Shown piece after piece: positions 12,817-61,571 of a DNA stretch of 64,000 nt (the first letter of the stretch is position 1; every line of letters begins with the position of its first letter). Source of the stretch: Draconibacterium sp. (GTDB taxonomy: Bacteria; Bacteroidota; Bacteroidia; Bacteroidales; Prolixibacteraceae); NCBI GenBank assembly GCA_050179035.1, contig JBFXFM010000021.1:12-64011 (forward strand), written 5' to 3'. Under the pieces are notes generated by a model that did no database searches, was not told where the DNA came from, and saw only the letters and a program-made list of their open reading frames with translations. The translations under genes were made by a program, and so were the position numbers.

Positions 12817-12948
12817 TAGAAAATTGACAGTTTAAATTTGGTTGGAAGATGAAAAACCGATTCTTGATATTTGATACTGGATTTTTGAAAACTGATACTG
12901 GATTTTGGATACTCGATTCTCATTACTCAATTCTAAAAATCTGTTTTT

Positions 12949-34022: not shown

Positions 34023-34080
34023 TAAAAGTATGCCTACACTATTAAACCAGAATTACAGAAATATTACAGTTTTATTACAT
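34023..34080 (-). promoter_or_regulatory. Candidate Pho box (4 repeats, 11-bp period) + -7 element
   Basis: Plus strand from 34041: ATTAAACCAGA ATTACAGAAAT ATTACAGTTTT ATTACAT (TTA at 34042/53/64/75); TACTTTTA on the minus strand at 34023-34030. Confidence 0.7.
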
Positions 34081-40692: not shown

Positions 40693-40750
40693 CGAAAAAA
40701 AGGTATTAATATTACAAGGGGGTTAATATTAATTTAAGGACTTGTTACAT
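40693..40750 (-). promoter_or_regulatory. Candidate Pho box (4 repeats, 11-bp period) for the T9SS-1/TBDR-1 operon
   Basis: Plus strand from 40711: ATTACAAGGGG GTTAATATTAA TTTAAGGACTT GTTACAT (TTA at 40712/23/34/45); degenerate -7 element TTTTTTCG. Confidence 0.65.
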
Positions 40751-40890: not shown

Positions 40891-42651
40891 CTACCTTTTT
40901 GCCAGCGTAAACAGGAACTCGACACCACCGGTTTCGCGGTTACGCACCGAGATATCGCCTTTGTGCAACTGAACTGCGTTTTTTACGATAGCCAGCCCCA
41001 GTCCGGTTCCTCCGGCTTCGCGGGTGCGGCCATGGTCAACCCGGTAAAACCTTTCAAAAATCCGCGAAAGGTGTTCTTCCGGAATTCCGGCGCCCGTGTC
41101 GGAATACGAGAAATAGTAGTATTTATCGTCTTCGTGATAAACTTTTATCTGTATAGAAATTCCTTTTCCACCGTAATTGATCGAGTTTTCCACAAGGTTT
41201 TGGAAAACCGAGAAAAGCAGCGATTCGTTACCATTTATAATTGTATTTTCAGGGATTTCGGTTGTAAATCTGATGTTTTTTTCATCAATCCGGTTGGCAA
41301 AATTCTGGTAAACTTCTTCGATGAGGGTTTTCAAATCAGTTAGTTTAAACCTGAAAAGTTCTCCCGCGTCTTCAATGTTTGTCAGCAACGAAACATCGTT
41401 TATCAGGTGGGTGAGGCGCTGCGACTGCAAGTATGCTTTTTCAAGAAAATAGCGTTGTTTTTCAGCCGAAACAGGCCTGTTTTCCAATATTGTCTCAAGA
41501 TATCCTTTAATTGACGCCAACGGAGTTTTCAACTCGTGGGCAATGTTCGAAGTGAGTTGCTGTTTCATCAGCCTTCGCTTTTCGAGCCGGGTGATATCTG
41601 TAATCACGACTTCGAAACTAAGGTCGGGGAAAATGATGCTTTGTACTTTTAGAAATTTTTCGCCTTTTGAAATAGTAAACTCCGACTGTTGCAGATTTTC
41701 TGACGAACTGTTGGTAATTGACGGATTTTCTACAAACCGGGTTAGTTCGGCAAACTCTTCCATTTTGAAAATGTGCTCGGGTACAGTAACTTTTTTGTCG
41801 GATATCGAATTGAGGTACTGAATAAAATAGCGGTTCGAAAGTGTTTTTTGTTTTCCGGGCGAAAAGAAAGCGATGCCTTCGTTTAGCGCATTCAGATGGC
41901 TTAGCAGTTTTTCGCGTTCGGTGGCCAACTCGTCCTTGGTTTTTTTCAGGTCACTATAAATAGCAATAATTTGCGAACCAATCGTTCCCAGTTCGTTACC
42001 CGGAAATTCGGTAACCGTGTCAATCTGTTCTTTTTTACCAGCTTTTACTGCAAAATCGCGGAGCTTTGTAATGGCGTCGGCCATACGCGAAGTAATGAAA
42101 AACAATACAATACCAATAATGGAAAATGCAGCTACAATAAAAAAGATGTAATATCGCTCCGTCTTCAGAAAATTCTGGACCTGAACGTCGTAAACAACCG
42201 CTGTACGTACAAAAAAGTGACTGTATTTTTTGGCGTAATAGTAATAAACTTCATTTGTTGTATCCGAGAGGCGGATATTGGCTCCTGATTTGTGTTTAAA
42301 GGCTTTGTCAATTTCAGGTCGGTGGAGGTGGTTTTCCATGGTTCGGTAATTCTCAACCGAACTGTCGAAAATTACTTCGCCATTCAGCATAATAACAGTA
42401 ATTCTCAGGTGTTCCTGCGGAATTATTTCCTTTAATCCCGTAATGCGACTCATTTGGTTTTGTCTAACCAAATCGTTCTTTTCAATAAATAAAGCGGTGA
42501 TTTCGGTAATATTATCGAGCGTATTTTCCAACTGCCGGGTGCGGAATTTTTTCTCGCGTTCGTACTGAAATGCCAGCACGGATGCCGTAAACAAAAAGAA
42601 AACCACAATGTAGTAGAGAAAAATTTTTCCCCTGAAGGAATTTGAATTCAC
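40891..42651 (-). CDS. PhoR-like sensor histidine kinase
   Basis: 586 aa; two TMs; TSNIAHELKTPLASIKGYLET, NLVENSINY, DTGAGIP..RIFERFYRVD..R.REAGGTGLGL. Confidence 0.9.
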   Translation of the reverse strand: MNSNSFRGKIFLYYIVVFFLFTASVLAFQYEREKKFRTRQLENTLDNITEITALFIEKNDLVRQNQMSRITGLKEIIPQEHLRITVIMLNGEVIFDSSVENYRTMENHLHRPEIDKAFKHKSGANIRLSDTTNEVYYYYAKKYSHFFVRTAVVYDVQVQNFLKTERYYIFFIVAAFSIIGIVLFFITSRMADAITKLRDFAVKAGKKEQIDTVTEFPGNELGTIGSQIIAIYSDLKKTKDELATEREKLLSHLNALNEGIAFFSPGKQKTLSNRYFIQYLNSISDKKVTVPEHIFKMEEFAELTRFVENPSITNSSSENLQQSEFTISKGEKFLKVQSIIFPDLSFEVVITDITRLEKRRLMKQQLTSNIAHELKTPLASIKGYLETILENRPVSAEKQRYFLEKAYLQSQRLTHLINDVSLLTNIEDAGELFRFKLTDLKTLIEEVYQNFANRIDEKNIRFTTEIPENTIINGNESLLFSVFQNLVENSINYGGKGISIQIKVYHEDDKYYYFSYSDTGAGIPEEHLSRIFERFYRVDHGRTREAGGTGLGLAIVKNAVQLHKGDISVRNRETGGVEFLFTLAKR

Positions 42652-42666
42652 ACTTGTATTTTTGAA

Positions 42667-43353
42667 CTATTCAATATTTACAAAGCTGTAGCCGTACCCC
42701 GATTTGCCTTTTATATTATCGCTGTACTGGCCTATTTTCCTGCGCAAACGGGCAATATTCACATCCACATTGCGGTCGGTAACAATCACATCGTAATTCC
42801 AGATGCTTTTCAGAATTTCCTCGCGGCTGATGTATTTTCCCATATTTTTTACAAGCAATACAAGAATTTCGTACTCTTTGCGGGTGAGGTTAACTGGTAT
42901 GCCTTCAATCAGTGTTTCCTTTTTATCAGGGTTGATTTTCAGGTCGCGGTAAACCATCTGGTTACTTTCTTTTTCGGGTTTGGTACCTCTTTTCAAGATC
43001 GCTTTTATTCGGGCAATAATTTCCTTTATTGAAAAGGGTTTCGAGATGTAATCGTCGGCACCCACATTAAAACCGGTGAGAATGTCGTTTTCTTCGGTTT
43101 TGGCGGTAAGAAAAATAATAGGGATTTCAAGTTTTTTTTCTTTCCGTATCACATTGGCAACCTTGAAACCAGAGATTCCACCCATCATTACATCAAGCAG
43201 AATGAGGTCGAATTCCTCAAGTGGTTTTTTCAGTGCATCTTCGCCAGAGTGGGCAATATCAATGTCGAAACCTTCGCTTTCAAGATTAAATTCAAGAATT
43301 TCGCAAAGGTCTTTTTCGTCGTCAACGATCAGTATTTTTTTCTTCGATTCCAT
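42667..43353 (-). CDS. PhoB/PhoP-like OmpR-family response regulator
   Basis: 228 aa; IVDDE, LLDVMM, FLTAK, DDYISKPF; wHTH LTRKEYEIL..RNVDVNIARLRRKI. Confidence 0.92.
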   Translation of the reverse strand: MESKKKILIVDDEKDLCEILEFNLESEGFDIDIAHSGEDALKKPLEEFDLILLDVMMGGISGFKVANVIRKEKKLEIPIIFLTAKTEENDILTGFNVGADDYISKPFSIKEIIARIKAILKRGTKPEKESNQMVYRDLKINPDKKETLIEGIPVNLTRKEYEILVLLVKNMGKYISREEILKSIWNYDVIVTDRNVDVNIARLRRKIGQYSDNIKGKSGYGYSFVNIE

Positions 43354-43490
43354 TTTAAAAGGCTTATCAGAAATTTAACTTTAATTGAACCTAAATTTTA
43401 CATTTCGTGCAATTTGGCTGGTGTTGTTTATTCGCTGTCCTAAAAAACCTGTTTTATTAAACATTTTACCCGCCAGATATTACATAAATG

Positions 43491-51374: not shown

Positions 51375-53009
51375 CTAATTAATAATGATTTTCCGGGTTA
51401 CTGAACCGGTTTCGCCAGTAAAACGAATAAAGAAAATGCCTTTGTTTATTGCACTTACATCGATGGTTTGCCTTGTCGATTCAACCAACCCGCGCTGCAC
51501 GGTTTTGCCTGTAATATCGTGAATGCTGAATGTTTCAAAACGGTTTTCTGACAAATCAAAATTCAGTTTTCCGTTGTTCACAGGATTTGGATAAACGTTA
51601 ACCACGGGTTCGGCGCCGATTTGTTCTTTAACCGCATTTGTGCCCGATTTGTAATAAACCACTAATTGCGGAACACGCTCGGGGTGGTTCTGTCCGTCGC
51701 CGCCATCTTCCGGGTCGGCAATATTTTCGAACGATTCCAACTCGCGTGCATTTTCAGCTTCGCTCACGCCCTGGTTTTCACCTTCCATGATAAAAGCTAT
51801 GGCATTTCCCGAATTCCAGCCCTGTAATCCGATGATTTCCTGAACCACCGATTTGATATCCGCAGTGCGGTGTTTTGTGTAAAGTCCCCATTCTTCGGCA
51901 ACTTCCCAGCGTACCGAGGCTGAAGTTTTTGGTCTGTCGGTAATTAAAGCTTCCATGCTAAATGTTTCGGGGTTAGCATTTTTTTCGCCACGGATGGTGA
52001 TGTTGGCTTCATCAGTTGCCGATTTTCCTTCGTGCGAGTGGATTACAATATATGCCGAATCGATGGTAGCATCAGCAGGAATGGTGATTCCGCGGAAACG
52101 TAACCCAAGGTTTACAATGTTGATTGTACTGGCATCCACATATTCATACCCAATATCAAGGTCGTCATCATACAAATCGTCCATTTCATCGTTCTCCTGT
52201 TCGGCATCGTCTGATGATACATTGATAACCACACCTTCTTCCATGATGGTGTCGGTTTTCTGAATATAAACTTCCAGTTTTTCGTTGTCGGTTGTGCCTG
52301 CCGGTTCAGAATAATACACCACCAATTGCGGAACGCGCTCGGGGTGGTTCTGTCCGTCGCCTCCATCTTCGGGGTCGGCAATATTTTCGAACGATTCAAG
52401 TTCGCGTGCATTTTCGGCTTCGCTCACACCCTGGTTTTCGCCTTCAAGAATAAATGAGATGGCATTTCCTGAATTCCATCCGCTCAAACCAATTATTTCC
52501 TGAACCACCGATTTGATATCAGGTGTGCGGTGTTTTGTGTAAAGTCCCCATTCTTCGGCAATTTCCCAGCGTACCGAGGCTGAAGTTTTTGGCCGGTCGG
52601 TAATAAGCGCTTCCATAGTAAATGTTTCGGGGTTGGCATTTTTTTCGCCTTTTATTGTGATGTTGGCCACATCGGTGGCCGATTTTCCTTCGTGAGAGTG
52701 GATTACAATAAATGCCGAATCGATTGTTGCACCTGCCGGAATTGTAATTCCAAGGAAACGCATCCCAAGGTTTACAATGTTTATTTCGCTTGCATCAACA
52801 TATTCATAACCAATGTCGAGGTCGTCGTCAAACAAGTCGTCCATTGCATCGTTTTCCTGCTCTGCATCGTCAGACGAAACATTGATTACCACACCTTCTT
52901 CCATAATGGTGTCGGTTTTCTGAATGTAAACTTCCAGTTTCTTGTTTTGCGCAAAAACTGAAGTGGTAAAAAACAAAAGGAATAAGGAATAAAGTAGAGT
53001 TGATTTCAT
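51375..53009 (-). CDS. T9SS-secreted protein 2: two tandem acidic ~220-aa domains + type-A CTD
   Basis: 544 aa; signal peptide; units offset by 660 bp (SSDDAEQEND..DDDLDIG..LG.RF.GITIP..ATIDSA..WNSGNAI); CTD VYPNPV..DITGK..KIIIN. Confidence 0.9.
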   Translation of the reverse strand: MKSTLLYSLFLLFFTTSVFAQNKKLEVYIQKTDTIMEEGVVINVSSDDAEQENDAMDDLFDDDLDIGYEYVDASEINIVNLGMRFLGITIPAGATIDSAFIVIHSHEGKSATDVANITIKGEKNANPETFTMEALITDRPKTSASVRWEIAEEWGLYTKHRTPDIKSVVQEIIGLSGWNSGNAISFILEGENQGVSEAENARELESFENIADPEDGGDGQNHPERVPQLVVYYSEPAGTTDNEKLEVYIQKTDTIMEEGVVINVSSDDAEQENDEMDDLYDDDLDIGYEYVDASTINIVNLGLRFRGITIPADATIDSAYIVIHSHEGKSATDEANITIRGEKNANPETFSMEALITDRPKTSASVRWEVAEEWGLYTKHRTADIKSVVQEIIGLQGWNSGNAIAFIMEGENQGVSEAENARELESFENIADPEDGGDGQNHPERVPQLVVYYKSGTNAVKEQIGAEPVVNVYPNPVNNGKLNFDLSENRFETFSIHDITGKTVQRGLVESTRQTIDVSAINKGIFFIRFTGETGSVTRKIIIN

Positions 53010-53034: not shown

Positions 53035-53092
53035 CAAGATTAACAAGTGGCATTTAAACGCAGGTTACAATCAGATTAAGTGAATGTTACAG
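53035..53092 (-). promoter_or_regulatory. Candidate Pho box (4 repeats, 11-bp period) for the T9SS-2/TBDR-2/phytase operon
   Basis: TTTAAACGCAG GTTACAATCAG ATTAAGTGAAT GTTACAG from 53053; TAATCTTG -7 element on the minus strand at 53035-53042. Confidence 0.7.
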
Positions 53093-53188
53093 AAACATAA
53101 TTTCTGATTACAACTTTTTGTAAGAAATCGGTCACCAGGATTTTCACCCAGGTGAAAAGATTTTGCTCAAACAATGATTTGAATTTGT

Positions 53189-53563
53189 TTACGCAAATAC
53201 TGTCTCTTTTCTGCTTCCGGCCATTCGGTTAATATGTACCTGCGCTTCAGCATAACTATCGATATTGCGCAGCGATTTGGTAATTTTTATGCGGGTTTCG
53301 GGCCTGTCAACCATTTCCCTGAAATCGTCGAGGCAAATTTCGATACTGCTGTACCTGTAAATCTGGCCGGTTTCAAAATCATAGCTAAAATCTTCAAGTT
53401 CAGCAAAAACAAATTCAAGCCCTGTATTATGAAAGTTGATTTCGTAAAAACGGGCATAAACAAGCGATATACTTCCATCGGGCATTCCGTAAAAATAAAC
53501 GGGGAGTGCTGTATGAAAATAGGTCATGTTCGACTTATAAATTAAAACGGGTTTTGTGCTCAT
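53189..53563 (-). CDS. Hypothetical cytoplasmic protein, paralog of 45898-46308
   Basis: MSTKPVLIYKSNMTYFHTALPVYFYGMPDG; last gene of the plcP-like/GT operon; start 53563 or 53569. Confidence 0.8.
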   Translation of the reverse strand: MSTKPVLIYKSNMTYFHTALPVYFYGMPDGSISLVYARFYEINFHNTGLEFVFAELEDFSYDFETGQIYRYSSIEICLDDFREMVDRPETRIKITKSLRNIDSYAEAQVHINRMAGSRKETVFA

Positions 53564-53580
53564 ATTCATTCAATTAAAGG

Positions 53581-54567
53581 TTAAATGGTGTTACGCATAA
53601 TTATTTTTTCGATGATTTCGTTGGTTCTGTCGGGGAAATCAATTTTCAGCGGCTGTATGTTTTCGAGCCAAAGCCTGATTTTGGCTACATCTTCAGAGAG
53701 GTCGTTTAAAACCTGAACTCCCATTTCGCGCAGGAAAGCTGCATTGCATTGTTGTTCGTACTGGTTTTTCATCGGAATCACACAAAGTTTTTTCCCCATG
53801 TGAAGGGCTTCGGCCGGGGTTTCAAAACCGGCATTACAAAGAATCCCGCTGCAACTGATAAACGACTCGTGAAATTTTTCGATTGAAACGGGTTGAAAAT
53901 GAATATTTTGTTTGCTGTATGATTTTTGGCTGTGTTTCGAAAAAACTTCCCACTGTACCTGTGGAAATGCGCCTAAAACCCTTTCAATCTCTTCGTTACT
54001 GTACGATGGCAAATAAACCGAGTAGTGGTTGTTTGTGGAGTGATTTGCGTTTCGGATTGCAGTTCGGATTACCGGGCTGAAATTGAAGCTGTCGAGCTGA
54101 TTAAAATGAAACCCATATTTTAGCGAAACCGGCGCATAATTTCGGAGAATAAATTTTCCCAGTGCATCATGTTTTTCAGGTTTTGGAGTGGCGTTGTGCA
54201 AAACCGCATTCTGATGACTAAGCCCGATGCACTTTTTGCCCTTAATTTTGCAGGCCCAAGCCGAAACAGGTTCAAAATCGCTGATAACCAGGTCGTATTT
54301 TTGTACTGGCAATTTTATCAAATCAACAAGAAACCTGGGTAACCTTGACTTTGCAATTGTTTTTTTTAAATCAACACCGCCGGTTGTACCAAAAATAAAA
54401 CTCACGCCATAAAACCTGTATTTTACTTCGAACGGGAGTTGAATATCACCCTGAATTCCACTGACGAGCACGTCAGTTTCGGCCATTTTCTGCAGAACAG
54501 GAACGATTTCGGTTGCCCTCGCCAAATGCCCGTTGCCGGTTCCCTGAATTGCGTACAATACTTTCAT
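53581..54567 (-). CDS. GT-B glycosyltransferase (MJ1255/VC2487-like, related to GT28/MGDG synthase)
   Basis: MKVLYAIQGTGNGHLARA, VISDFEPVSAWA, NAGFETPAEAL..GKKLCVIPMKNQYEQ. Confidence 0.88.
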   Translation of the reverse strand: MKVLYAIQGTGNGHLARATEIVPVLQKMAETDVLVSGIQGDIQLPFEVKYRFYGVSFIFGTTGGVDLKKTIAKSRLPRFLVDLIKLPVQKYDLVISDFEPVSAWACKIKGKKCIGLSHQNAVLHNATPKPEKHDALGKFILRNYAPVSLKYGFHFNQLDSFNFSPVIRTAIRNANHSTNNHYSVYLPSYSNEEIERVLGAFPQVQWEVFSKHSQKSYSKQNIHFQPVSIEKFHESFISCSGILCNAGFETPAEALHMGKKLCVIPMKNQYEQQCNAAFLREMGVQVLNDLSEDVAKIRLWLENIQPLKIDFPDRTNEIIEKIIMRNTI

Positions 54568-54570
54568 TTT

Positions 54571-55407
54571 TTACAATATGTTGGTAAAAACAAGTTCTTT
54601 AATCAACGATTGGTATAACTGTCGTCCTTCGGGAATATCAGGTTCGTCATTGGGAAATTCGTCGTCGTTTTCGGTGTGGTAAAAAAGTTTCCATTCTTTT
54701 GAATCGTATTCGGCTGCGGTAAAATTTTCAACCCAGTCGCCGCAATTCAGGTATTTAATGGTTTTGCCATTTATAATCAGCTCTTTTTCTTTTGGGATGT
54801 GGGTGTGCCCGCAAATCACCGATTGATAGCCCTGCGTTTCGGCCACTTCGCCAATTTTCTTCTCAAAAACCGAAGGTTCGGGTTTTTCGCGGAGCCAACG
54901 TTTTTTAATACTCCGGTAAAAGATGATTTCGTTTTTTCCAAAAAGCCTTAAAAACGGCTGAAGTGCGTTGTTCAGCCACGAAAGCAATCCGTACGAAGCC
55001 GCCCCGATTTTGGCTAACCATTTTGTTTCGTGAATCACAAGGTCGAAAATATCGCCATGAAAAATCCAGGTCTTCTGGCCATCAAGGTCCAATACCAACT
55101 GGTTTACAATGCGCAGGTTTCCAATCTGAATTTTTTCAAACTTCCGTAAAAATTCATCGTGATTACCTGTAATGTAATAAACCTGAACCCCTCTTTCCAT
55201 CATTTTAATCAGCTGCCTGATTACTTTGAGGTGGGCTTTGGGGAAAAAATTTCGCGAAAACCGCCACGAATCAATGATGTCGCCGTTTAAGACAAGGGTT
55301 TTGGGTTGTATCGATTTCAGGTATTTTAAAACCTTTTTGGGGTGACAGGCGTGTGTGGCAAGATGAATATCGGATATTACAGCCACTTCCGGTTCTCTTA
55401 TCTTCAT
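54571..55407 (-). CDS. PlcP/LpxH-like metallophosphoesterase
   Basis: VISDIHL, NGDIIDSW, GNHDE, FHGD.FD.V....KWLA, CGHTH, YLNCGDWVE; likely start 55407. Confidence 0.88.
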   Translation of the reverse strand: MKIREPEVAVISDIHLATHACHPKKVLKYLKSIQPKTLVLNGDIIDSWRFSRNFFPKAHLKVIRQLIKMMERGVQVYYITGNHDEFLRKFEKIQIGNLRIVNQLVLDLDGQKTWIFHGDIFDLVIHETKWLAKIGAASYGLLSWLNNALQPFLRLFGKNEIIFYRSIKKRWLREKPEPSVFEKKIGEVAETQGYQSVICGHTHIPKEKELIINGKTIKYLNCGDWVENFTAAEYDSKEWKLFYHTENDDEFPNDEPDIPEGRQLYQSLIKELVFTNIL

Positions 55408-55428
55408 AGTTAATTCACTATAATGCTG

Positions 55429-55486
55429 CAAATTAGGCTGATTGTTATTAATCTACAGTTACAGTTCAGTTACGATAAAAATAAAG
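55429..55486 (-). promoter_or_regulatory. Candidate Pho box for the plcP-like/GT/hypothetical operon
   Basis: ATTAATCTACA GTTACAGTTCA GTTACGATAAA AATAAAG from 55447; CTAATTTG -7 element on the minus strand at 55429-55436. Confidence 0.65.
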
Positions 55487-55530
55487 TTAAAGGCAGCGAA
55501 GATTCAGATTTTACAGTTTCATGTTTTATT

Positions 55531-55576
55531 TTTAACCGGTTTTTAACCGGTTGAACAGTAGTGTTTTGTAGTTTTG
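55531..55576 (+). promoter_or_regulatory. Promoter of the DUF2062 gene with two TTAACC repeats 11 bp apart
   Basis: TTAACC at 55532 and 55543; perfect TAGTTTTG at 55569-55576. Confidence 0.5.
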
Positions 55577-55690: not shown

Positions 55691-56185
55691 ATGAAAATAC
55701 GACCATTCAGATTCGATTCGATAAATACAATCCTGAACAGGCGCAAAGCGCGAATATTCAGGTTATTAAATGCCCAACCCGATAATCCGAAGCATAAGGC
55801 ACTTTCGATTACAACCGGTATTTATCTCGGGTTTTTTCCTGTAATCGGGGCTACTACAGTTTTAAGCCTGATAGTATCATTTGTTTTCAGGCTGAATCAT
55901 TTTTTGGTACAGGGATTAAATCTGTTGCTCGCACCGGTGCATCTTGCAGTAATTCTTCCTGTGCTGAAAGCAGGGCGGTGGCTGTTTTTTGGCGATGGAC
56001 ACGTAATCAGCGCAATTTCGTTTCAACATGGAATCAGCCTTGAAGCGTTTCAACCGCTTTTTGAAAGTGTTGCAGGCGGAATAGTTCTTTGGGCAATTGT
56101 TGCAGCAGTAACCAGTCCGGGCGTTTATTTTCTGATATTAAAAATCGTTGAAAAACAAATAAAGGAAACAGTTTCAAACCAATAG
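55691..56185 (+). CDS. DUF2062 membrane protein
   Basis: ALSITTGIYLGFFPVIG, FRLN, NLLLAP, GRWL; multi-TM. Confidence 0.8.
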   Translation: MKIRPFRFDSINTILNRRKARIFRLLNAQPDNPKHKALSITTGIYLGFFPVIGATTVLSLIVSFVFRLNHFLVQGLNLLLAPVHLAVILPVLKAGRWLFFGDGHVISAISFQHGISLEAFQPLFESVAGGIVLWAIVAAVTSPGVYFLILKIVEKQIKETVSNQ

Positions 56186-56245: not shown

Positions 56246-56270
56246 TCAAATGATATTCTTACAGCACCTG

Positions 56271-56981
56271 CTATTTTTTCAGAATTCTGTCAAGCACAGT
56301 TTCTTTCGAAATCTTTTTGGTACAGAAGAACCAGTCTTTGCATTCCAATCCTTCTTCTTTGCCGTCCATGCGGTCTTTTGCGGTTCCGCACGAACCGGCA
56401 GGCGAAATAATAACATCATCACCCGGACGCCAGTCGGCAGGTGTTGCAATTTTAAATTCGTCGGCAGTTTGCAGCGCAAGAATCACGCGGTACAGTTCGT
56501 CGAAATTACGGCCAAGGCTGAGCGGATAATAAATAATGGTGCGGATAACGCCAACCGGGTCAATCACAAATACAGCGCGAACAGCTTTTGTATTGCTTTC
56601 GCCAGGCATCATCATTCCGTATTTTTTAGCTACTTCCATCGTAATGTCTTCGATGAGCGGGAAAGTAACTTCCACGTCTTTCATGCCTTTGTACTCAATT
56701 TTTTCCTTGATGGTGCGCAGCCAGGCAATGTGGCTGTACAAACCGTCAACCGAGAGGCCCACGAGCTTGCAGTTGGCTTCGTTGAATTGTTTTTCGAGCG
56801 TGGCAAAAGTCATAAACTCCGAGGTGCAAACCGGTGTAAAGTCGGCCGGGTGGCTGAAAAGAATTACCCAGCTACCTTTGTAATCGGCCGGGAAATTTAT
56901 ATCACCCTGTGTTGTTACTGCCTTAAATTCAGGCGCTTTGTCGCCAATGCGTGGCATGGCATAAACTTGATTTTCTTCCAT
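56271..56981 (-). CDS. Peroxiredoxin (Prx6/archaeal-type)
   Basis: LFSHPADFTPVCTSE, GLSVDGLYSHIAW, VRAVFVIDP, YYPLSLGRNFDE, ATPADW..DWFFC. Confidence 0.95.
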   Translation of the reverse strand: MEENQVYAMPRIGDKAPEFKAVTTQGDINFPADYKGSWVILFSHPADFTPVCTSEFMTFATLEKQFNEANCKLVGLSVDGLYSHIAWLRTIKEKIEYKGMKDVEVTFPLIEDITMEVAKKYGMMMPGESNTKAVRAVFVIDPVGVIRTIIYYPLSLGRNFDELYRVILALQTADEFKIATPADWRPGDDVIISPAGSCGTAKDRMDGKEEGLECKDWFFCTKKISKETVLDRILKK

Positions 56982-57059
56982 TTTTATAAAATTTAAATAT
57001 TAATGTAATTATTTTGTTGGCCTTTCTGCGGCCATGGTTTTACTTTATTCAATTGATTT

Positions 57060-57479
57060 TCAGCATTTATTAAAAGTCCCTTTTATTTGCAACACAAATT
57101 CTTCGGGTTTAAAACCAGGCAGATGTTTGTTTTCGAAATATTTCCTGAGTAAATCGTCAAGTTCCGCATCGTGGTAATCTTCAATTAAATCGCAGGTTGA
57201 ACAATACAAATGATGGTGACTTTCAAGAATTCCATCGTACCGCATAAAATCGCGGTCGGTGGTAACTTTTTTTATCAGTCCGTTTTCAACCAGTATTTCA
57301 AGTACTTTATAAACTGTGCCGATGGCAATATTCGGATGTGTTTTTCTGATGAACTCAACAATGTTATCGGCTGTGGGATGATTATTCAACTCATAAATCG
57401 CTTCAAGAATAGCCATTCGTTGAGGAGTGATTTTCATTCCTTTTTCAGCCAGTTTCTGTTTTAATAATTCGTTGTCCAT
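57060..57479 (-). CDS. Fur-family regulator, PerR-like
   Basis: KITPQRMAIL, HPTAD, GTVYKVL, RYD, HHHLYCSTC; directly upstream of the peroxiredoxin. Confidence 0.9.
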   Translation of the reverse strand: MDNELLKQKLAEKGMKITPQRMAILEAIYELNNHPTADNIVEFIRKTHPNIAIGTVYKVLEILVENGLIKKVTTDRDFMRYDGILESHHHLYCSTCDLIEDYHDAELDDLLRKYFENKHLPGFKPEEFVLQIKGTFNKC

Positions 57480-61470: not shown

Positions 61471-61571
61471 TTCCTACTATTTTTAATTATTAAAACAATC
61501 ACAATTTATGTTTCTGTTTTTTATTCTTTCATTCATGCATTATAGCATTCACGCATTCATGCATTCCAAAA

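What the first reader, a model, noticed from the sequence alone, without database searches (positions are those of the whole stretch)
53581..55486. PlcP-like phosphoesterase + glycosyltransferase under a Pho box: membrane lipid remodelling in a Bacteroidota
Seen: a metallophosphoesterase with GNHDE, HGD.FD.V....KWLA and N.GDWVE, 3 bp upstream of a GT-B glycosyltransferase, preceded by the 11-bp repeat array. Established: in Proteobacteria, PlcP cleaves phospholipid head groups under P limitation and partner GTs turn the resulting DAG into glycolipids; such genes are often auto-annotated as LpxH. Inference: this operon swaps phospholipids (or phosphosphingolipids) for P-free glycolipids.
Basis: partly seen in the sequence, partly recalled or inferred. 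Interest (0 to 1): 0.68.

Follow-up and report, generated by a model that had tools for sequence, protein, structure and literature searches.

The report
Phosphate-starvation lipid-remodelling operon (PlcP plus glycosyltransferase)
A Draconibacterium-like bacterium carries a phosphate-starvation operon encoding a PlcP-type phospholipase C and an uncharacterised glycosyltransferase; this gene pairing is already catalogued in Bacteroidota, so it is a solid but ordinary finding.

Summary
On the minus strand lie a 278-aa metallophosphoesterase (54571-55407), a 328-aa GT-B glycosyltransferase 3 bp downstream (53581-54567), and a small conserved ORF (53189-53569). An 11-bp-periodic repeat array precedes them. 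The esterase is a PlcP/"LpxH2" family member, not LpxH. It keeps GNHD, fails both NCBIfam LpxH cut-offs, and is far closer to the Roseobacter MED193-type PlcP than to E. coli LpxH. The esterase-then-GT order holds in 59 of 75 and 35 of 79 assessable Bacteroidota loci. The repeat array (half-site KTAAH, exact 11-bp spacing) occurs before four operons of a phosphorus-scavenging island that also encodes PhoB and PhoR. It also recurs upstream of the esterase gene across the phylum. The glycolipid product is inferred only, because this GT family has never been characterised. The novelty was overstated: Sebastián et al. 2015 listed "PlcP + uncharacterised glycosyltransferase" in many Bacteroidetes, and Lidbury et al. 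2020 showed both genes low-Pi-induced in Flavobacterium johnsoniae. I could not test whether a separate housekeeping UDP-diacylglucosamine hydrolase exists. Verdict: new member of a known kind, modest interest.

The parts
55447..55473 (-). Proximal Pho-box-like array: three half-sites (GTAAC, GTAAC, TTAAT) at exact 11-bp spacing, ending 40 nt upstream of the MPE ATG.
   Evidence: The same architecture is conserved upstream of orthologues.
55529..55552 (.). Distal perfect 11-bp tandem repeat TTTTTAACCGG x2.2 (GGTTAAAAACC on the minus strand), in the intergenic region shared with the divergent DUF2062 gene. Its TTAA core reads as a half-site on either strand, so its target gene is uncertain.
55429..55435 (-). 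TAATTTG, resembling the Bacteroidota sigma-A -7 element (TAnnTTTG). It lies 11 nt downstream of the array and 21 nt upstream of the ATG.
   Evidence: Sequence reading. TTTG-containing motifs sit at the same relative place in relatives. This is inference.
54571..55407 (-). PlcP/LpxH2-family metallophosphoesterase, 278 aa from the ATG (286 aa if the upstream TTG at 55431 is used).
53581..54567 (-). GT-B glycosyltransferase of the uncharacterised PF13528 / MJ1255-VC2487-like family, 328 aa, starting 3 nt after the MPE stop.
   Evidence: Synteny.
53189..53569 (-). 126-aa ORF of unknown function, 11 nt downstream of the GT and probably the last gene of the operon. Its small family is seen only in Prolixibacteraceae-type contigs.
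   Evidence: The AlphaFold model (pLDDT 88) has no PDB fold match.
53125..53163 (-). Stem-loop after the 126-aa ORF; a possible transcript end. Confidence is low because there is no clear T-run.
   Evidence: -16.7 kcal/mol for the 71-nt stretch, z-score -2.7.
42667..43353 (-). PhoB response regulator, the presumed trans-acting activator.
   Evidence: NCBIfam NF053854 scores 316.9 bits against a cut-off of 270.
40891..42651 (-). PhoR sensor histidine kinase.
   Evidence: NCBIfam NF053855 scores 673 bits against a cut-off of 500.
53053..53090 (-). Four-half-site KTAAH array upstream of the operon for the T9SS-secreted 544-aa protein, a TonB-dependent transporter (TBDT) and a beta-propeller phytase. 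It marks the same regulon.
40711..40748 (-). Four-half-site KTAAH array upstream of the operon for the T9SS-secreted 989-aa protein and a TBDT.
34041..34078 (-). Four-half-site array (TGTAAT x3 plus TTTAAT) upstream of the 125-aa CarboxypepD_reg-like ORF, next to the PhoU-like and PitA-like genes.

Best explanation
This is a PhoB-activated three-gene operon (plcP-like esterase, glycosyltransferase, 126-aa ORF) for phosphorus-sparing membrane remodelling.

Proposed mechanism:
1. Under phosphate starvation, PhoR phosphorylates PhoB.
2. PhoB binds the 11-bp-spaced KTAAH direct repeats that sit where a -33 promoter element would be, and switches on transcription.
3. The cytoplasmic, membrane-peripheral esterase is expected to be Mn2+-dependent, by analogy with characterised PlcP. 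It cleaves the phosphodiester of bulk glycerophospholipid (mainly phosphatidylethanolamine in Bacteroidota), releasing diacylglycerol and a phospho-head group whose phosphorus is recycled.
4. The GT-B enzyme transfers a sugar from a nucleotide sugar onto the diacylglycerol, giving a phosphorus-free glycolipid that replaces the lost phospholipid.

What is shown here:
- Family membership of the esterase.
- Conserved gene pairing.
- A shared, conserved cis-element, and the presence of PhoB and PhoR in the same island.

What comes from the literature, for homologues judged orthologous by family membership and gene context (orthology to Fjoh_4577, Fjoh_0541 and MED134_03774 was not tested directly):
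- Low-Pi induction.

What is inferred:
- PhoB binding.
- The esterase substrate.
- The GT acceptor and donor.
- Any role of the 126-aa ORF.
For: Esterase is PlcP-type, not LpxH:
- It has the full metallophosphoesterase signature with GNHD. All 80 Bacteroidota homologues have GNHD and none has GNRD. Arg at this position is the LpxH hallmark (PMC3087551; PMC5016852).
- It fails both NCBIfam LpxH equivalogs: 67.8 bits against 134, and 56.2 against 190.
- BLASTP to the MED193-type PlcP gives 36% identity, 144 bits, E 3e-46. To E. coli LpxH it gives 26%, 49.7 bits, E 2e-11.
- An HMM built from the Bacteroidota family alone scores PlcP at 212.9 bits, E. coli LpxH at 39.8 and P. aeruginosa LpxH at 30.4. 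The neighbour-joining split of LpxH from the rest holds in 200 of 200 bootstraps.
- The helical insertion aligns without gaps to PlcP.
- The published Dokdonia MED134 plcP RT-PCR primers encode HDExLRK and V[IV]CGHIH, matching HDEFLRK and VICGHTH here. A scan with the forward primer retrieves about 100 loci holding this family.

Pairing with the GT:
- The GT homologue lies immediately downstream in 59 of 75 and 35 of 79 assessable loci, spanning Prolixibacteraceae, Sphingobacteriales, Saprospiraceae, Flavobacteriales, Cytophagales and Balneolales.
- Ochrovirga pacifica S85 is listed by Sebastián et al. as 'PlcP + uncharacterised glycosyltransferase'. It has this very pair.

Regulation:
- Triple KTAAH arrays at 11-bp spacing occur 7 times in the window against 0.17 expected. 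All are on the minus strand, directly upstream of four operons in an island with PhoB, PhoR, a phytase, TBDTs and PitA-like and PhoU-like genes.
- The dimer lies upstream of the esterase gene, in gene orientation, in 74 of 173 loci (9.7 expected; 35 in the opposite orientation). It peaks at -80 to -40.
- PhoB/PhoR-like gene pairs lie within 6 kb of the esterase in 15 of 75 loci.

Literature:
- F. johnsoniae PlcP (Fjoh_4577) has log2FC 8.59 under low Pi. The GT Fjoh_0541, in the phoBR cluster, has log2FC 5.42 under low Pi but -0.43 under low Fe and -0.23 under low N.
Against: - No biochemical or lipidomic evidence exists for this GT family. There is no PDB sequence relative, no literature on it, and Foldseek gives only generic GT1-type GT-B hits with TM 0.5-0.6.
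- It is not a member of the known diacylglycerol glycosyltransferase families. It is not GT4 Agt, and its PF04101 hit is below the cut-off.
- In Dokdonia MED134, which has the same pairing, P-starved membranes were described as rich in aminolipids, with no glycolipid mentioned.
- Canonical LpxH seems absent from Bacteroidota. P. gingivalis has only a weak LpxH2-like hit and no LpxI. A lipid A role for some member of this family therefore cannot be excluded.
- No RNA data were available for this organism.
- PhoB binding to the array is untested.
Confidence: 0.68

Rival explanations
1. The esterase is, or doubles as, the Bacteroidota housekeeping UDP-2,3-diacylglucosamine hydrolase for step 4 of lipid A synthesis. 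That is, the automatic 'LpxH' annotation is functionally right.
For: - Database names for close homologues are all LpxH.
- The fold and lid architecture are shared with LpxH.
- Opiyo et al. found no LpxH and no LpxI in P. gingivalis, only a weak LpxH2-like hit.
- A scan for the canonical LpxH block HGNRDFLxG listed 80 of its 120 hits. All were Beta- or Gammaproteobacteria apart from two Planctomycetota, and none was Bacteroidota. The phylum's enzyme for this step is therefore unassigned.
Against: - It has GNHD, not GNRD, in 80 of 80 homologues.
- It scores below both LpxH equivalog cut-offs and is much closer to validated PlcP.
- P. aeruginosa LpxH2 does not complement E. coli lpxH, and its lid residues differ from those binding lipid X.
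- The gene sits under a Pho-box-like array, often beside phoBR or a phytase, and is coupled to a GT that is not LpxB.
- The F. johnsoniae homologue is induced about 385-fold by low Pi and was not detected in the proteomes. That is odd for a constitutive essential enzyme.
Confidence: 0.1
2. The pair remodels a different phosphorus-containing envelope lipid. One option is cleaving ceramide-phosphoethanolamine or another phosphosphingolipid and glycosylating the ceramide. Another is trimming and glycosylating a lipid A or LPS phosphate. The logic is the same (phosphorus sparing under PhoB) but the substrate differs.
For: - Regulation and pairing fit any phosphorus-sparing swap.
- The GT belongs to none of the known diacylglycerol-GT families.
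- Its nearest folds are GT1 enzymes that act on varied lipophilic acceptors.
- Some Bacteroidota contain sphingolipids (general knowledge).
- No glycosyl-DAG was reported in P-starved Dokdonia.
Against: - Characterised PlcPs act on glycerophospholipids.
- The lid region aligns gaplessly with MED193-type PlcP.
- The pair occurs in many lineages not known for sphingolipids.
- Nothing in the neighbourhood encodes sphingolipid or lipid A enzymes.
Confidence: 0.12
3. Only the esterase acts in lipid remodelling. In this view it feeds diacylglycerol to other sinks, with aminolipids compensating for the lost phospholipid. The GT would glycosylate a non-lipid or polyprenyl acceptor needed during Pi stress.
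For: - In F. johnsoniae-clade and many Flavobacteriaceae loci the esterase stands alone ('orphan').
- The Dokdonia response was described in terms of aminolipids.
- The GT acceptor is unknown.
Against: - The 3-nt coupling here and the conserved order in 94 of 154 assessable loci argue for a shared pathway.
- Where the genes are unlinked, the F. johnsoniae GT is still specifically low-Pi-induced and sits in the phoBR cluster.
- The PlcP-plus-GT logic is established in Proteobacteria.
Confidence: 0.1

Closest known systems
PlcP (also called 'LpxH2'): the phospholipase C of Sinorhizobium meliloti SMc00171, Phaeobacter/Roseobacter sp. MED193 MED193_17359, SAR11 HTCC7211 and P. aeruginosa PA3219
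   Same: - Same metallophosphoesterase family, with GNHD and a homologous helical insertion: 36% identity, E 3e-46, and 213 bits against the Bacteroidota-only HMM.
- A Pho-box-type element lies upstream.
- A lipid-synthesis gene lies immediately downstream.
   Different: - The Bacteroidota proteins form their own clade, apart from the MED193-type PlcP, the one PlcP reference in the tree (181 of 200 bootstraps).
- They carry an acidic C-terminal tail absent from MED193 PlcP.
- The downstream partner is not Agt (GT4) or BtaAB but a PF13528 GT.
- No enzymology exists for any Bacteroidota member.
Bacteroidetes 'PlcP + uncharacterised glycosyltransferase' loci of Sebastián et al. 2015 (for example Dokdonia MED134, Owenweeksia, Flavobacteriaceae S85), and F. 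johnsoniae Fjoh_4577 and Fjoh_0541 of Lidbury et al. 2020
   Same: - Same two gene families and the same order. This was verified for Ochrovirga pacifica S85 and seen in an Owenweeksia MAG.
- Low-Pi induction is reported for the Dokdonia and F. johnsoniae genes.
- The genes sit in a PhoBR, phytase and TBDT context like the F. johnsoniae PHO loci.
   Different: - This is a Prolixibacteraceae (Marinilabiliales) example with a third conserved small ORF.
- The cis-element is defined here.
- Orthology to Fjoh_0541 itself was inferred from family and context, not tested on its sequence.
LpxH (UDP-2,3-diacylglucosamine diphosphatase) of E. coli and P. aeruginosa
   Same: - Same superfamily.
- Same two-domain architecture: a metallophosphoesterase core plus a helical lid.
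- Best PDB sequence hits (E 8e-10).
- A lipid substrate bound at a dinuclear metal centre.
   Different: - His replaces the LpxH-specific Arg.
- Identity is 21-26%.
- It scores below the curated cut-offs.
- It is not in a lipid A gene context and is Pho-associated.
Agt (GT4) and other diacylglycerol glycosyltransferases: Pgt, MGD/GT28, UgtP
   Same: The presumed role is the same: a nucleotide-sugar-dependent GT-B enzyme encoded downstream of plcP that would convert diacylglycerol into a phosphorus-free glycolipid.
   Different: - It belongs to a different sequence family: PF13528, with TIGR00661 below its cut-off. It has no GT4 domain, and its PF04101 hit is only sub-threshold.
- Its nearest solved folds are GT1 natural-product and UGT enzymes.
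Pho boxes of E. coli (CTGTCAT-N4-CTGTCAT) and B. subtilis PhoP (TTAACA repeats, 11-bp period)
   Same: - Direct repeats with 11-bp periodicity just upstream of the core promoter.
- Found before several phosphorus-acquisition operons.
- Half-sites TGTAAC and GTTAAT resemble both TGTCAT and TTAACA.
   Different: - The half-site consensus KTAAH is looser and AT-rich.
- Arrays have 3-4 half-sites.
- Binding by the Bacteroidota PhoB is untested.
- I found no published consensus for the phylum.

Membership tests
PlcP / LpxH2 metallophosphoesterase | Five-block metallophosphoesterase signature D-Xn-GD-Xn-GNH(E/D)-Xn-H-Xn-GHXH, with His (not Arg) in block 3. | tested here: met
   The blocks are SDIHL, NGDIID, GNHDE, FHGD and CGHTH. 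GNHD is present in 80 of 80 homologues. The criterion comes from PMC3087551.
PlcP / LpxH2 metallophosphoesterase | Closer in sequence to experimentally validated PlcP than to LpxH. | tested here: met
   144 bits and 36% identity against 49.7 bits and 26%. 212.9 bits against 39.8 and 30.4 with the family HMM, and 200 of 200 bootstraps. The reference is a MAG protein near-identical to MED193_17359 over the 137 aa available, followed by btaA/btaB-like ORFs by position and size.
PlcP / LpxH2 metallophosphoesterase | Helical insertion (lid) homologous to that of PlcP and unlike the lipid X-binding lid of LpxH. | tested here: met
   It aligns gaplessly with PlcP through the ...KWLA.(I/L)G...Y...WLN... 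region. LpxH needs gaps there and shares few residues.
PlcP / LpxH2 metallophosphoesterase | Expression induced by phosphate starvation through PhoB. | tested here: inconclusive
   The cis-element and PhoB/PhoR are present, and the element is conserved. Induction is documented only for the Dokdonia and F. johnsoniae genes. No RNA data exist for this organism.
PlcP / LpxH2 metallophosphoesterase | Mn2+-dependent phospholipase C activity releasing diacylglycerol from PE, PG or PC. | not testable with these tools
   This needs enzymology.
LpxH (UDP-2,3-diacylglucosamine diphosphatase) | Arg in block 3 (GNRD) binding the lipid X phosphate. | tested here: not met
   The residue is His (GNHDE). The criterion comes from PMC5016852 and PMC3087551.
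LpxH (UDP-2,3-diacylglucosamine diphosphatase) | Score above the curated equivalog cut-offs (NF003743 at 134 bits; TIGR01854 at 190.35 bits). | tested here: not met
   It scores 67.8 and 56.2 bits.
LpxH (UDP-2,3-diacylglucosamine diphosphatase) | Complements lpxH loss, and is essential. | not testable with these tools
   This needs genetics. I also could not search the whole genome for another candidate hydrolase.
Pfam PF13528 Glyco_trans_1_3 (GT-B) | Score above the gathering threshold, and a two-Rossmann-domain GT-B fold. | tested here: met
   It scores 118.4 bits against a threshold of 25. The AlphaFold model has pLDDT 90.6, and all top Foldseek hits are GT-B enzymes.
NCBIfam TIGR00661 MJ1255/VC2487 glycosyltransferase subfamily | Score at or above 195.9 bits. 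| tested here: not met
   It scores 154.8 bits over the full length. It is related to the subfamily but outside its curated boundary.
Agt-type (GT4) PlcP-partner glycosyltransferase | GT4 / Glycos_transf_1 domain homologous to A. tumefaciens or SAR11 Agt. | tested here: not met
   No GT4-family Pfam hit; only PF13528 and a sub-threshold PF04101 hit.
GT28 MGDG-synthase / MurG-like | PF04101 (Glyco_tran_28_C) above the gathering score. | tested here: not met
   It scores 20.1 bits against a cut-off of 22, over residues 214-289 only. MurG and MGD1 are not among the 50 best Foldseek hits.
Pho box (PhoB/OmpR-family binding site) | Two or more direct-repeat half-sites with about 11-bp periodicity, next to the core promoter, shared by several phosphorus-related operons. 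| tested here: met
   Four arrays of 3-4 half-sites lie before four operons of the island, 7 hits against 0.17 expected. They are conserved and orientation-biased upstream of orthologues.
Pho box (PhoB/OmpR-family binding site) | Bound by phosphorylated PhoB and required for low-Pi induction. | not testable with these tools
   This needs EMSA or footprinting and a promoter-reporter assay.

The most novel reading that the evidence does not exclude
The PF13528 / MJ1255-VC2487-like GT-B enzyme is a previously unrecognised class of Pho-regulated membrane-glycolipid synthase, unrelated to Agt, Pgt or MGD. It would be used across Bacteroidota to replace phospholipid under P starvation. The KTAAH 11-bp array would be the phylum's still-undefined Pho box. 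A more radical add-on is that, because canonical LpxH and LpxI seem absent from the phylum, this PlcP-like family might also supply the missing UDP-diacylglucosamine hydrolase activity.
Probability: 0.4. Interest if true: 0.5.

Novelty: new member of a known kind. Interest (0 to 1): 0.3.

Why it matters
PlcP-driven lipid remodelling lowers the cellular phosphorus quota and is ecologically important in P-poor waters and soils. Bacteroidota are major organic-phosphorus mineralisers. This window gives a clean, complete example: sensor and regulator, cis-element, scavenging operons and a remodelling operon together in one island.

It corrects the widespread automatic 'LpxH' label on these genes.

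It also points to two small open questions that are easy to test. What lipid does the uncharacterised GT make? Is the KTAAH array the Bacteroidota Pho box?

It does not change the current picture.

Tried and rejected
- A strict Pho-box guess, TGTAAY-N5-TGTAAY or GTAACTG-N4-GTAACTG, was only weakly enriched in the window (5 hits against 1.4 expected; 5 against 3.1). It was not conserved in relatives. I replaced it with the looser half-site KTAAH at 11-bp spacing.
- The sigma-70 promoter and terminator scan was uninformative, at counts equal to shuffles. This is expected for Bacteroidota.
- No RNA-seq runs hold the locus. Only metagenomic DNA runs do.
- The GT has no PDB sequence relative, and Foldseek gives only generic GT1 GT-B hits. 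No literature exists on PF13528, TIGR00661 or VC2487 function.
- The 126-aa ORF has no Pfam or NCBIfam hit. It has 39 homologues and a confident model with no fold match.
- The PlcP Mn2+ paper PMC6052262 is not held.
- The Dokdonia MED134 and F. johnsoniae loci themselves were not retrieved. Orthology to Fjoh_4577, Fjoh_0541 and MED134_03774 therefore rests on family membership, primer-encoded motifs and context.
- The chunk holding MED193_17359 is cut after 137 aa. I used a near-identical MAG protein as the full-length reference.
- A search for a second LpxH-like gene in the window and in the first 204 fetched loci (L001-L204) found none. These are not whole genomes.
Full report
**Observation**

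The region holds three tightly packed minus-strand genes.
- The first is a metallophosphoesterase (MPE) ORF at 54571..55431 from a TTG. Homologues are 277-278 aa, so the start is more likely the ATG at 55407.
- The second is a 328-aa glycosyltransferase at 53581..54567, whose ATG lies 3 nt after the MPE stop.
- The third is a 126-aa ORF at 53189..53569, 11 nt further on.

Upstream of the MPE there are two 11-bp-periodic repeats. The proximal one is GTAAC-N6-GTAAC-N6-TTAAT at 55447-55473. The distal one is a perfect TTTTTAACCGG x2.2 at 55529-55552.

The window comes from a Draconibacterium orientale-like Prolixibacteraceae. The MPE is 97% identical at protein level to that of a D. orientale MAG, and neighbouring genes are 89-99% identical.

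**Is the esterase PlcP or LpxH?**

Pfam sees only the generic Metallophos domain.

The NCBIfam LpxH equivalogs match over the full length but far below their cut-offs: 67.8 bits against 134, and 56.2 against 190. The only PDB sequence relatives are LpxH structures, at E about 1e-9. Close homologues in public databases are all machine-named LpxH.

The literature gives a clean discriminator.
- LpxH replaces the His of the GNH(D/E) block with Arg in all known sequences.
- The paralogous 'LpxH2' family keeps the His. This family includes S. meliloti SMc00171 and P. aeruginosa PA3219, now called PlcP.
- P. aeruginosa LpxH2 does not complement E. coli lpxH (PMC3087551; PMC5016852).

The window protein and all 80 Bacteroidota homologues fetched from GTDB genomes have GNHD.

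To get an experimentally anchored PlcP, I searched genome contigs with the published RT-PCR primer for MED193_17359. The MED193 chunk holds only the first 137 residues. A Roseobacter MAG carries a near-identical full-length gene followed by two ORFs whose position and size match the btaA and btaB of the published type 1 arrangement. E. coli LpxH was taken from MG1655.

The comparisons all point the same way.
- BLASTP of the window MPE against PlcP gives 36% identity over 229 aa, 144 bits, E 3e-46. Against E. coli LpxH it gives 26%, 49.7 bits, E 2e-11.
- An HMM built from the Bacteroidota proteins alone scores PlcP at 212.9 bits, E. coli LpxH at 39.8 and P. aeruginosa LpxH at 30.4.
- In neighbour-joining bootstraps the two LpxH sequences split from PlcP plus Bacteroidota in 200 of 200 replicates.
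- The helical insertion aligns gaplessly with PlcP but not with LpxH.
- The degenerate primers that Sebastián et al. designed for Dokdonia MED134 plcP encode HDExLRK and V[IV]CGHIH, matching HDEFLRK and VICGHTH here.
- A scan with the forward primer returned 120 loci, of which about 100 hold a homologue of the window MPE.

**The glycosyltransferase**

It matches Pfam PF13528 (Glyco_trans_1_3) at 118 bits. It matches the NCBIfam MJ1255/VC2487 subfamily below that model's cut-off (154.8 bits against 195.9). It has only a sub-threshold hit to Glyco_tran_28_C.

There is no PDB sequence relative. The AlphaFold model is confident (pLDDT 90.6). Its best Foldseek matches are GT1-family GT-B enzymes acting on lipophilic acceptors, such as SpnP, EryCIII, CalG3, plant UGTs and YjiC, at TM 0.5-0.6.

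Sources name homologues only 'glycosyltransferase family protein' or 'TIGR00661 family'. I found no functional literature on the family. It is therefore a GT-B enzyme whose acceptor is unknown. It is not a member of the Agt (GT4) family that partners PlcP in Proteobacteria.

**Conserved pairing and context**

In 59 of 75 assessable loci from the homologue scan, a homologue of this GT lies immediately downstream of the MPE on the same strand. The same holds in 35 of 79 loci from the primer scan. These loci span Prolixibacteraceae, Sphingobacteriales, Saprospiraceae, Cryomorphaceae/Schleiferiaceae, Flavobacteriaceae, Cytophagales and Balneolales.

A PhoR/PhoB-like gene pair lies within the fetched flank in 15 of 75 loci, and a phytase in 8.

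In F. johnsoniae-clade loci the MPE has no adjacent GT. This matches the published description of Fjoh_4577 as an orphan gene.

**The island in the window**

The window is a phosphorus-scavenging island. It contains:
- a PitA-like transporter and a PhoU-like protein;
- two TonB-dependent transporters;
- two T9SS-secreted proteins;
- a beta-propeller phytase;
- a response regulator and a histidine kinase that pass the curated Bacteroidota-specific NCBIfam equivalogs for PhoB (316.9 bits against 270) and PhoR (673 against 500).

**The cis-element**

Reading several upstream regions suggested a half-site KTAAH repeated every 11 bp. Three consecutive half-sites at exact 11-bp spacing occur 7 times in the 64-kb window, forming 4 arrays of 3-4 half-sites. 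The expectation is 0.17 (maximum 2) from 200 composition-preserving shuffles.

All four arrays are on the minus strand, in intergenic DNA directly upstream of minus-strand transcription units:
- the MPE-GT operon;
- the operon of the T9SS 544-aa protein, a TBDT and the phytase;
- the operon of the T9SS 989-aa protein and a TBDT;
- a small CarboxypepD_reg-like ORF beside the PhoU-like and PitA-like genes.

Across 173 Bacteroidota loci, the dimer lies in gene orientation within 200 nt upstream of the MPE homologue in 74. Shuffles give a mean of 9.7 and a maximum of 18, and the opposite orientation gives 35. The sites concentrate at -80 to -40. The trimer occurs in 17 loci against 0.2 expected.

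Direct repeats at one helical turn, placed where a -33 element would be and followed by a TTTG-type -7 motif, are what an OmpR/PhoB-family activator site looks like. The half-sites resemble both the E. coli TGTCAT and the B. subtilis TTAACA Pho boxes. I found no published Bacteroidota consensus. The B. fragilis PhoB paper gives none. Binding itself is untested.

**What is already known**

- Sebastián et al. 2015 (PMC4796936) showed that PlcP homologues occur in Flavobacteria and Bacteroidetes.
- They showed that Dokdonia MED134 plcP is induced by P starvation and repressed by P re-addition.
- Their Table S2 lists an 'Uncharacterised glycosyltransferase' next to plcP in many Bacteroidetes, including Cytophaga hutchinsonii, Owenweeksia, Pedobacter BAL39, Dokdonia MED134, Kordia and Flavobacteriaceae S85.
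- I confirmed that Ochrovirga pacifica S85 carries the same MPE-then-GT pair as this window, at 46% and 50% identity.
- Lidbury et al. 2020 (PMC8115612) list, under 'lipid remodelling' in F. johnsoniae, PlcP Fjoh_4577 (log2FC 8.59 in low Pi) and a glycosyltransferase Fjoh_0541 in the phoBR cluster. The latter has log2FC 5.42 in low Pi, -0.43 in low Fe and -0.23 in low N.

The finding is therefore a new member of a known kind.

**What remains open**

First, the product of the GT is unknown. The published description of P-starved Dokdonia membranes mentions aminolipids, not glycolipids.

I could not search the whole genome.
- No second LpxH-like gene is in the window or in the first 204 fetched loci (L001-L204).
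- A scan of GTDB genomes for the canonical LpxH block HGNRDFLxG listed 80 of its 120 hits. All were Beta- or Gammaproteobacteria apart from two Planctomycetota, and none was Bacteroidota.
- Opiyo et al. report for P. gingivalis no LpxH, no LpxI and only a weak LpxH2-like hit.

The enzyme for lipid A step 4 in this phylum is thus not obvious, and a lipid A role for some PlcP-like protein cannot be fully excluded. Against that role stand the Pho context, the massive low-Pi induction of the F. johnsoniae gene, the failure of P. aeruginosa LpxH2 to complement lpxH, and the PlcP-like lid.

Third, the 126-aa ORF has only 39 homologues, all on Prolixibacteraceae-type contigs. It has a confident model but no fold match.

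**Verdict**

The lipid outcome is inferred, and the novelty was overstated.

Noticed in passing
window 31652-53009: The whole stretch is a phosphorus-scavenging island. It holds PitA-like and PhoU-like genes, two TBDTs, two T9SS-secreted proteins, PhoB and PhoR (both passing the Bacteroidota-specific NCBIfam equivalogs), and a beta-propeller phytase directly downstream of a TBDT. The layout closely resembles the F. johnsoniae PHO loci described by Lidbury et al. 2020.
   Followed up: partly
window 34041-34078, 40711-40748, 53053-53090, 55447-55473 (all minus strand): Arrays of 3-4 KTAAH half-sites at exact 11-bp spacing precede four operons (7 triple hits against 0.17 expected). This is a candidate Pho box for Bacteroidota, and I found no published consensus for the phylum. 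A related period-11 repeat (AAATTGAACCT x2.5, 43371-43397) sits just upstream of phoB itself.
   Followed up: partly
window 51375-53009 (-): The 544-aa T9SS-secreted protein upstream of the TBDT and phytase contains an internal tandem duplication of about 240 aa. The segment NKKLEVYIQKTDTIMEEGVVINVSSDDAEQEND...PQLVVYY occurs twice. It has no Pfam domain apart from the Por_Secre_tail. It may be a phosphorus-related exoprotein.
   Followed up: no
window 53189-53569 (-); also L002-L004, L008, L011-L013, L024: The 126-aa ORF family is restricted to Prolixibacteraceae-type contigs (39 homologues). It recurs next to the MPE-GT pair or the phytase/TBDT genes, sometimes in two copies flanking the pair. 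The AlphaFold model is confident (pLDDT 88) but has no PDB fold match.
   Followed up: yes
window 55691-56185 (+): A DUF2062 membrane protein is encoded divergently from the MPE and shares the 259-bp intergenic region that holds the distal perfect 11-bp repeat. The arrangement is conserved in L001, L002 and L014. The protein might be co-regulated, and its link to lipid remodelling is unknown.
   Followed up: no
Genome-contig scan, loci from L205 (80 of 120 listed): The canonical LpxH motif HGNRDFLxG was found only in Beta- and Gammaproteobacteria, plus two Planctomycetota MAGs, among the 80 hits listed. None was Bacteroidota. Together with Opiyo et al. 2010 on P. gingivalis, this suggests the UDP-diacylglucosamine hydrolase of Bacteroidota is still unassigned.
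   Followed up: partly
L015 1494-2327 and 7588-7896: One Mariniphaga MAG contig carries two copies of the PlcP-like gene. One follows a phytase. The second sits just downstream of the GT homologue on the same strand and is cut by the contig end.
   Followed up: no
window 56250-56996 (+) versus 56271-56981 (-): Two long ORFs overlap almost completely on opposite strands. The minus-strand one is a conserved protein whose sequence reads as a peroxiredoxin (not confirmed by a family search), 94-98% identical in L001 and L002. It is followed by a Fur-family regulator at 57060-57479. The plus-strand ORF is presumably spurious.
   Followed up: no
window 61530-61566 and 12859-12911: Short tandem repeats lie in intergenic DNA: CATTCATG x4.6 and a 21-bp unit x2.5. 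Their significance is unknown.
   Followed up: no
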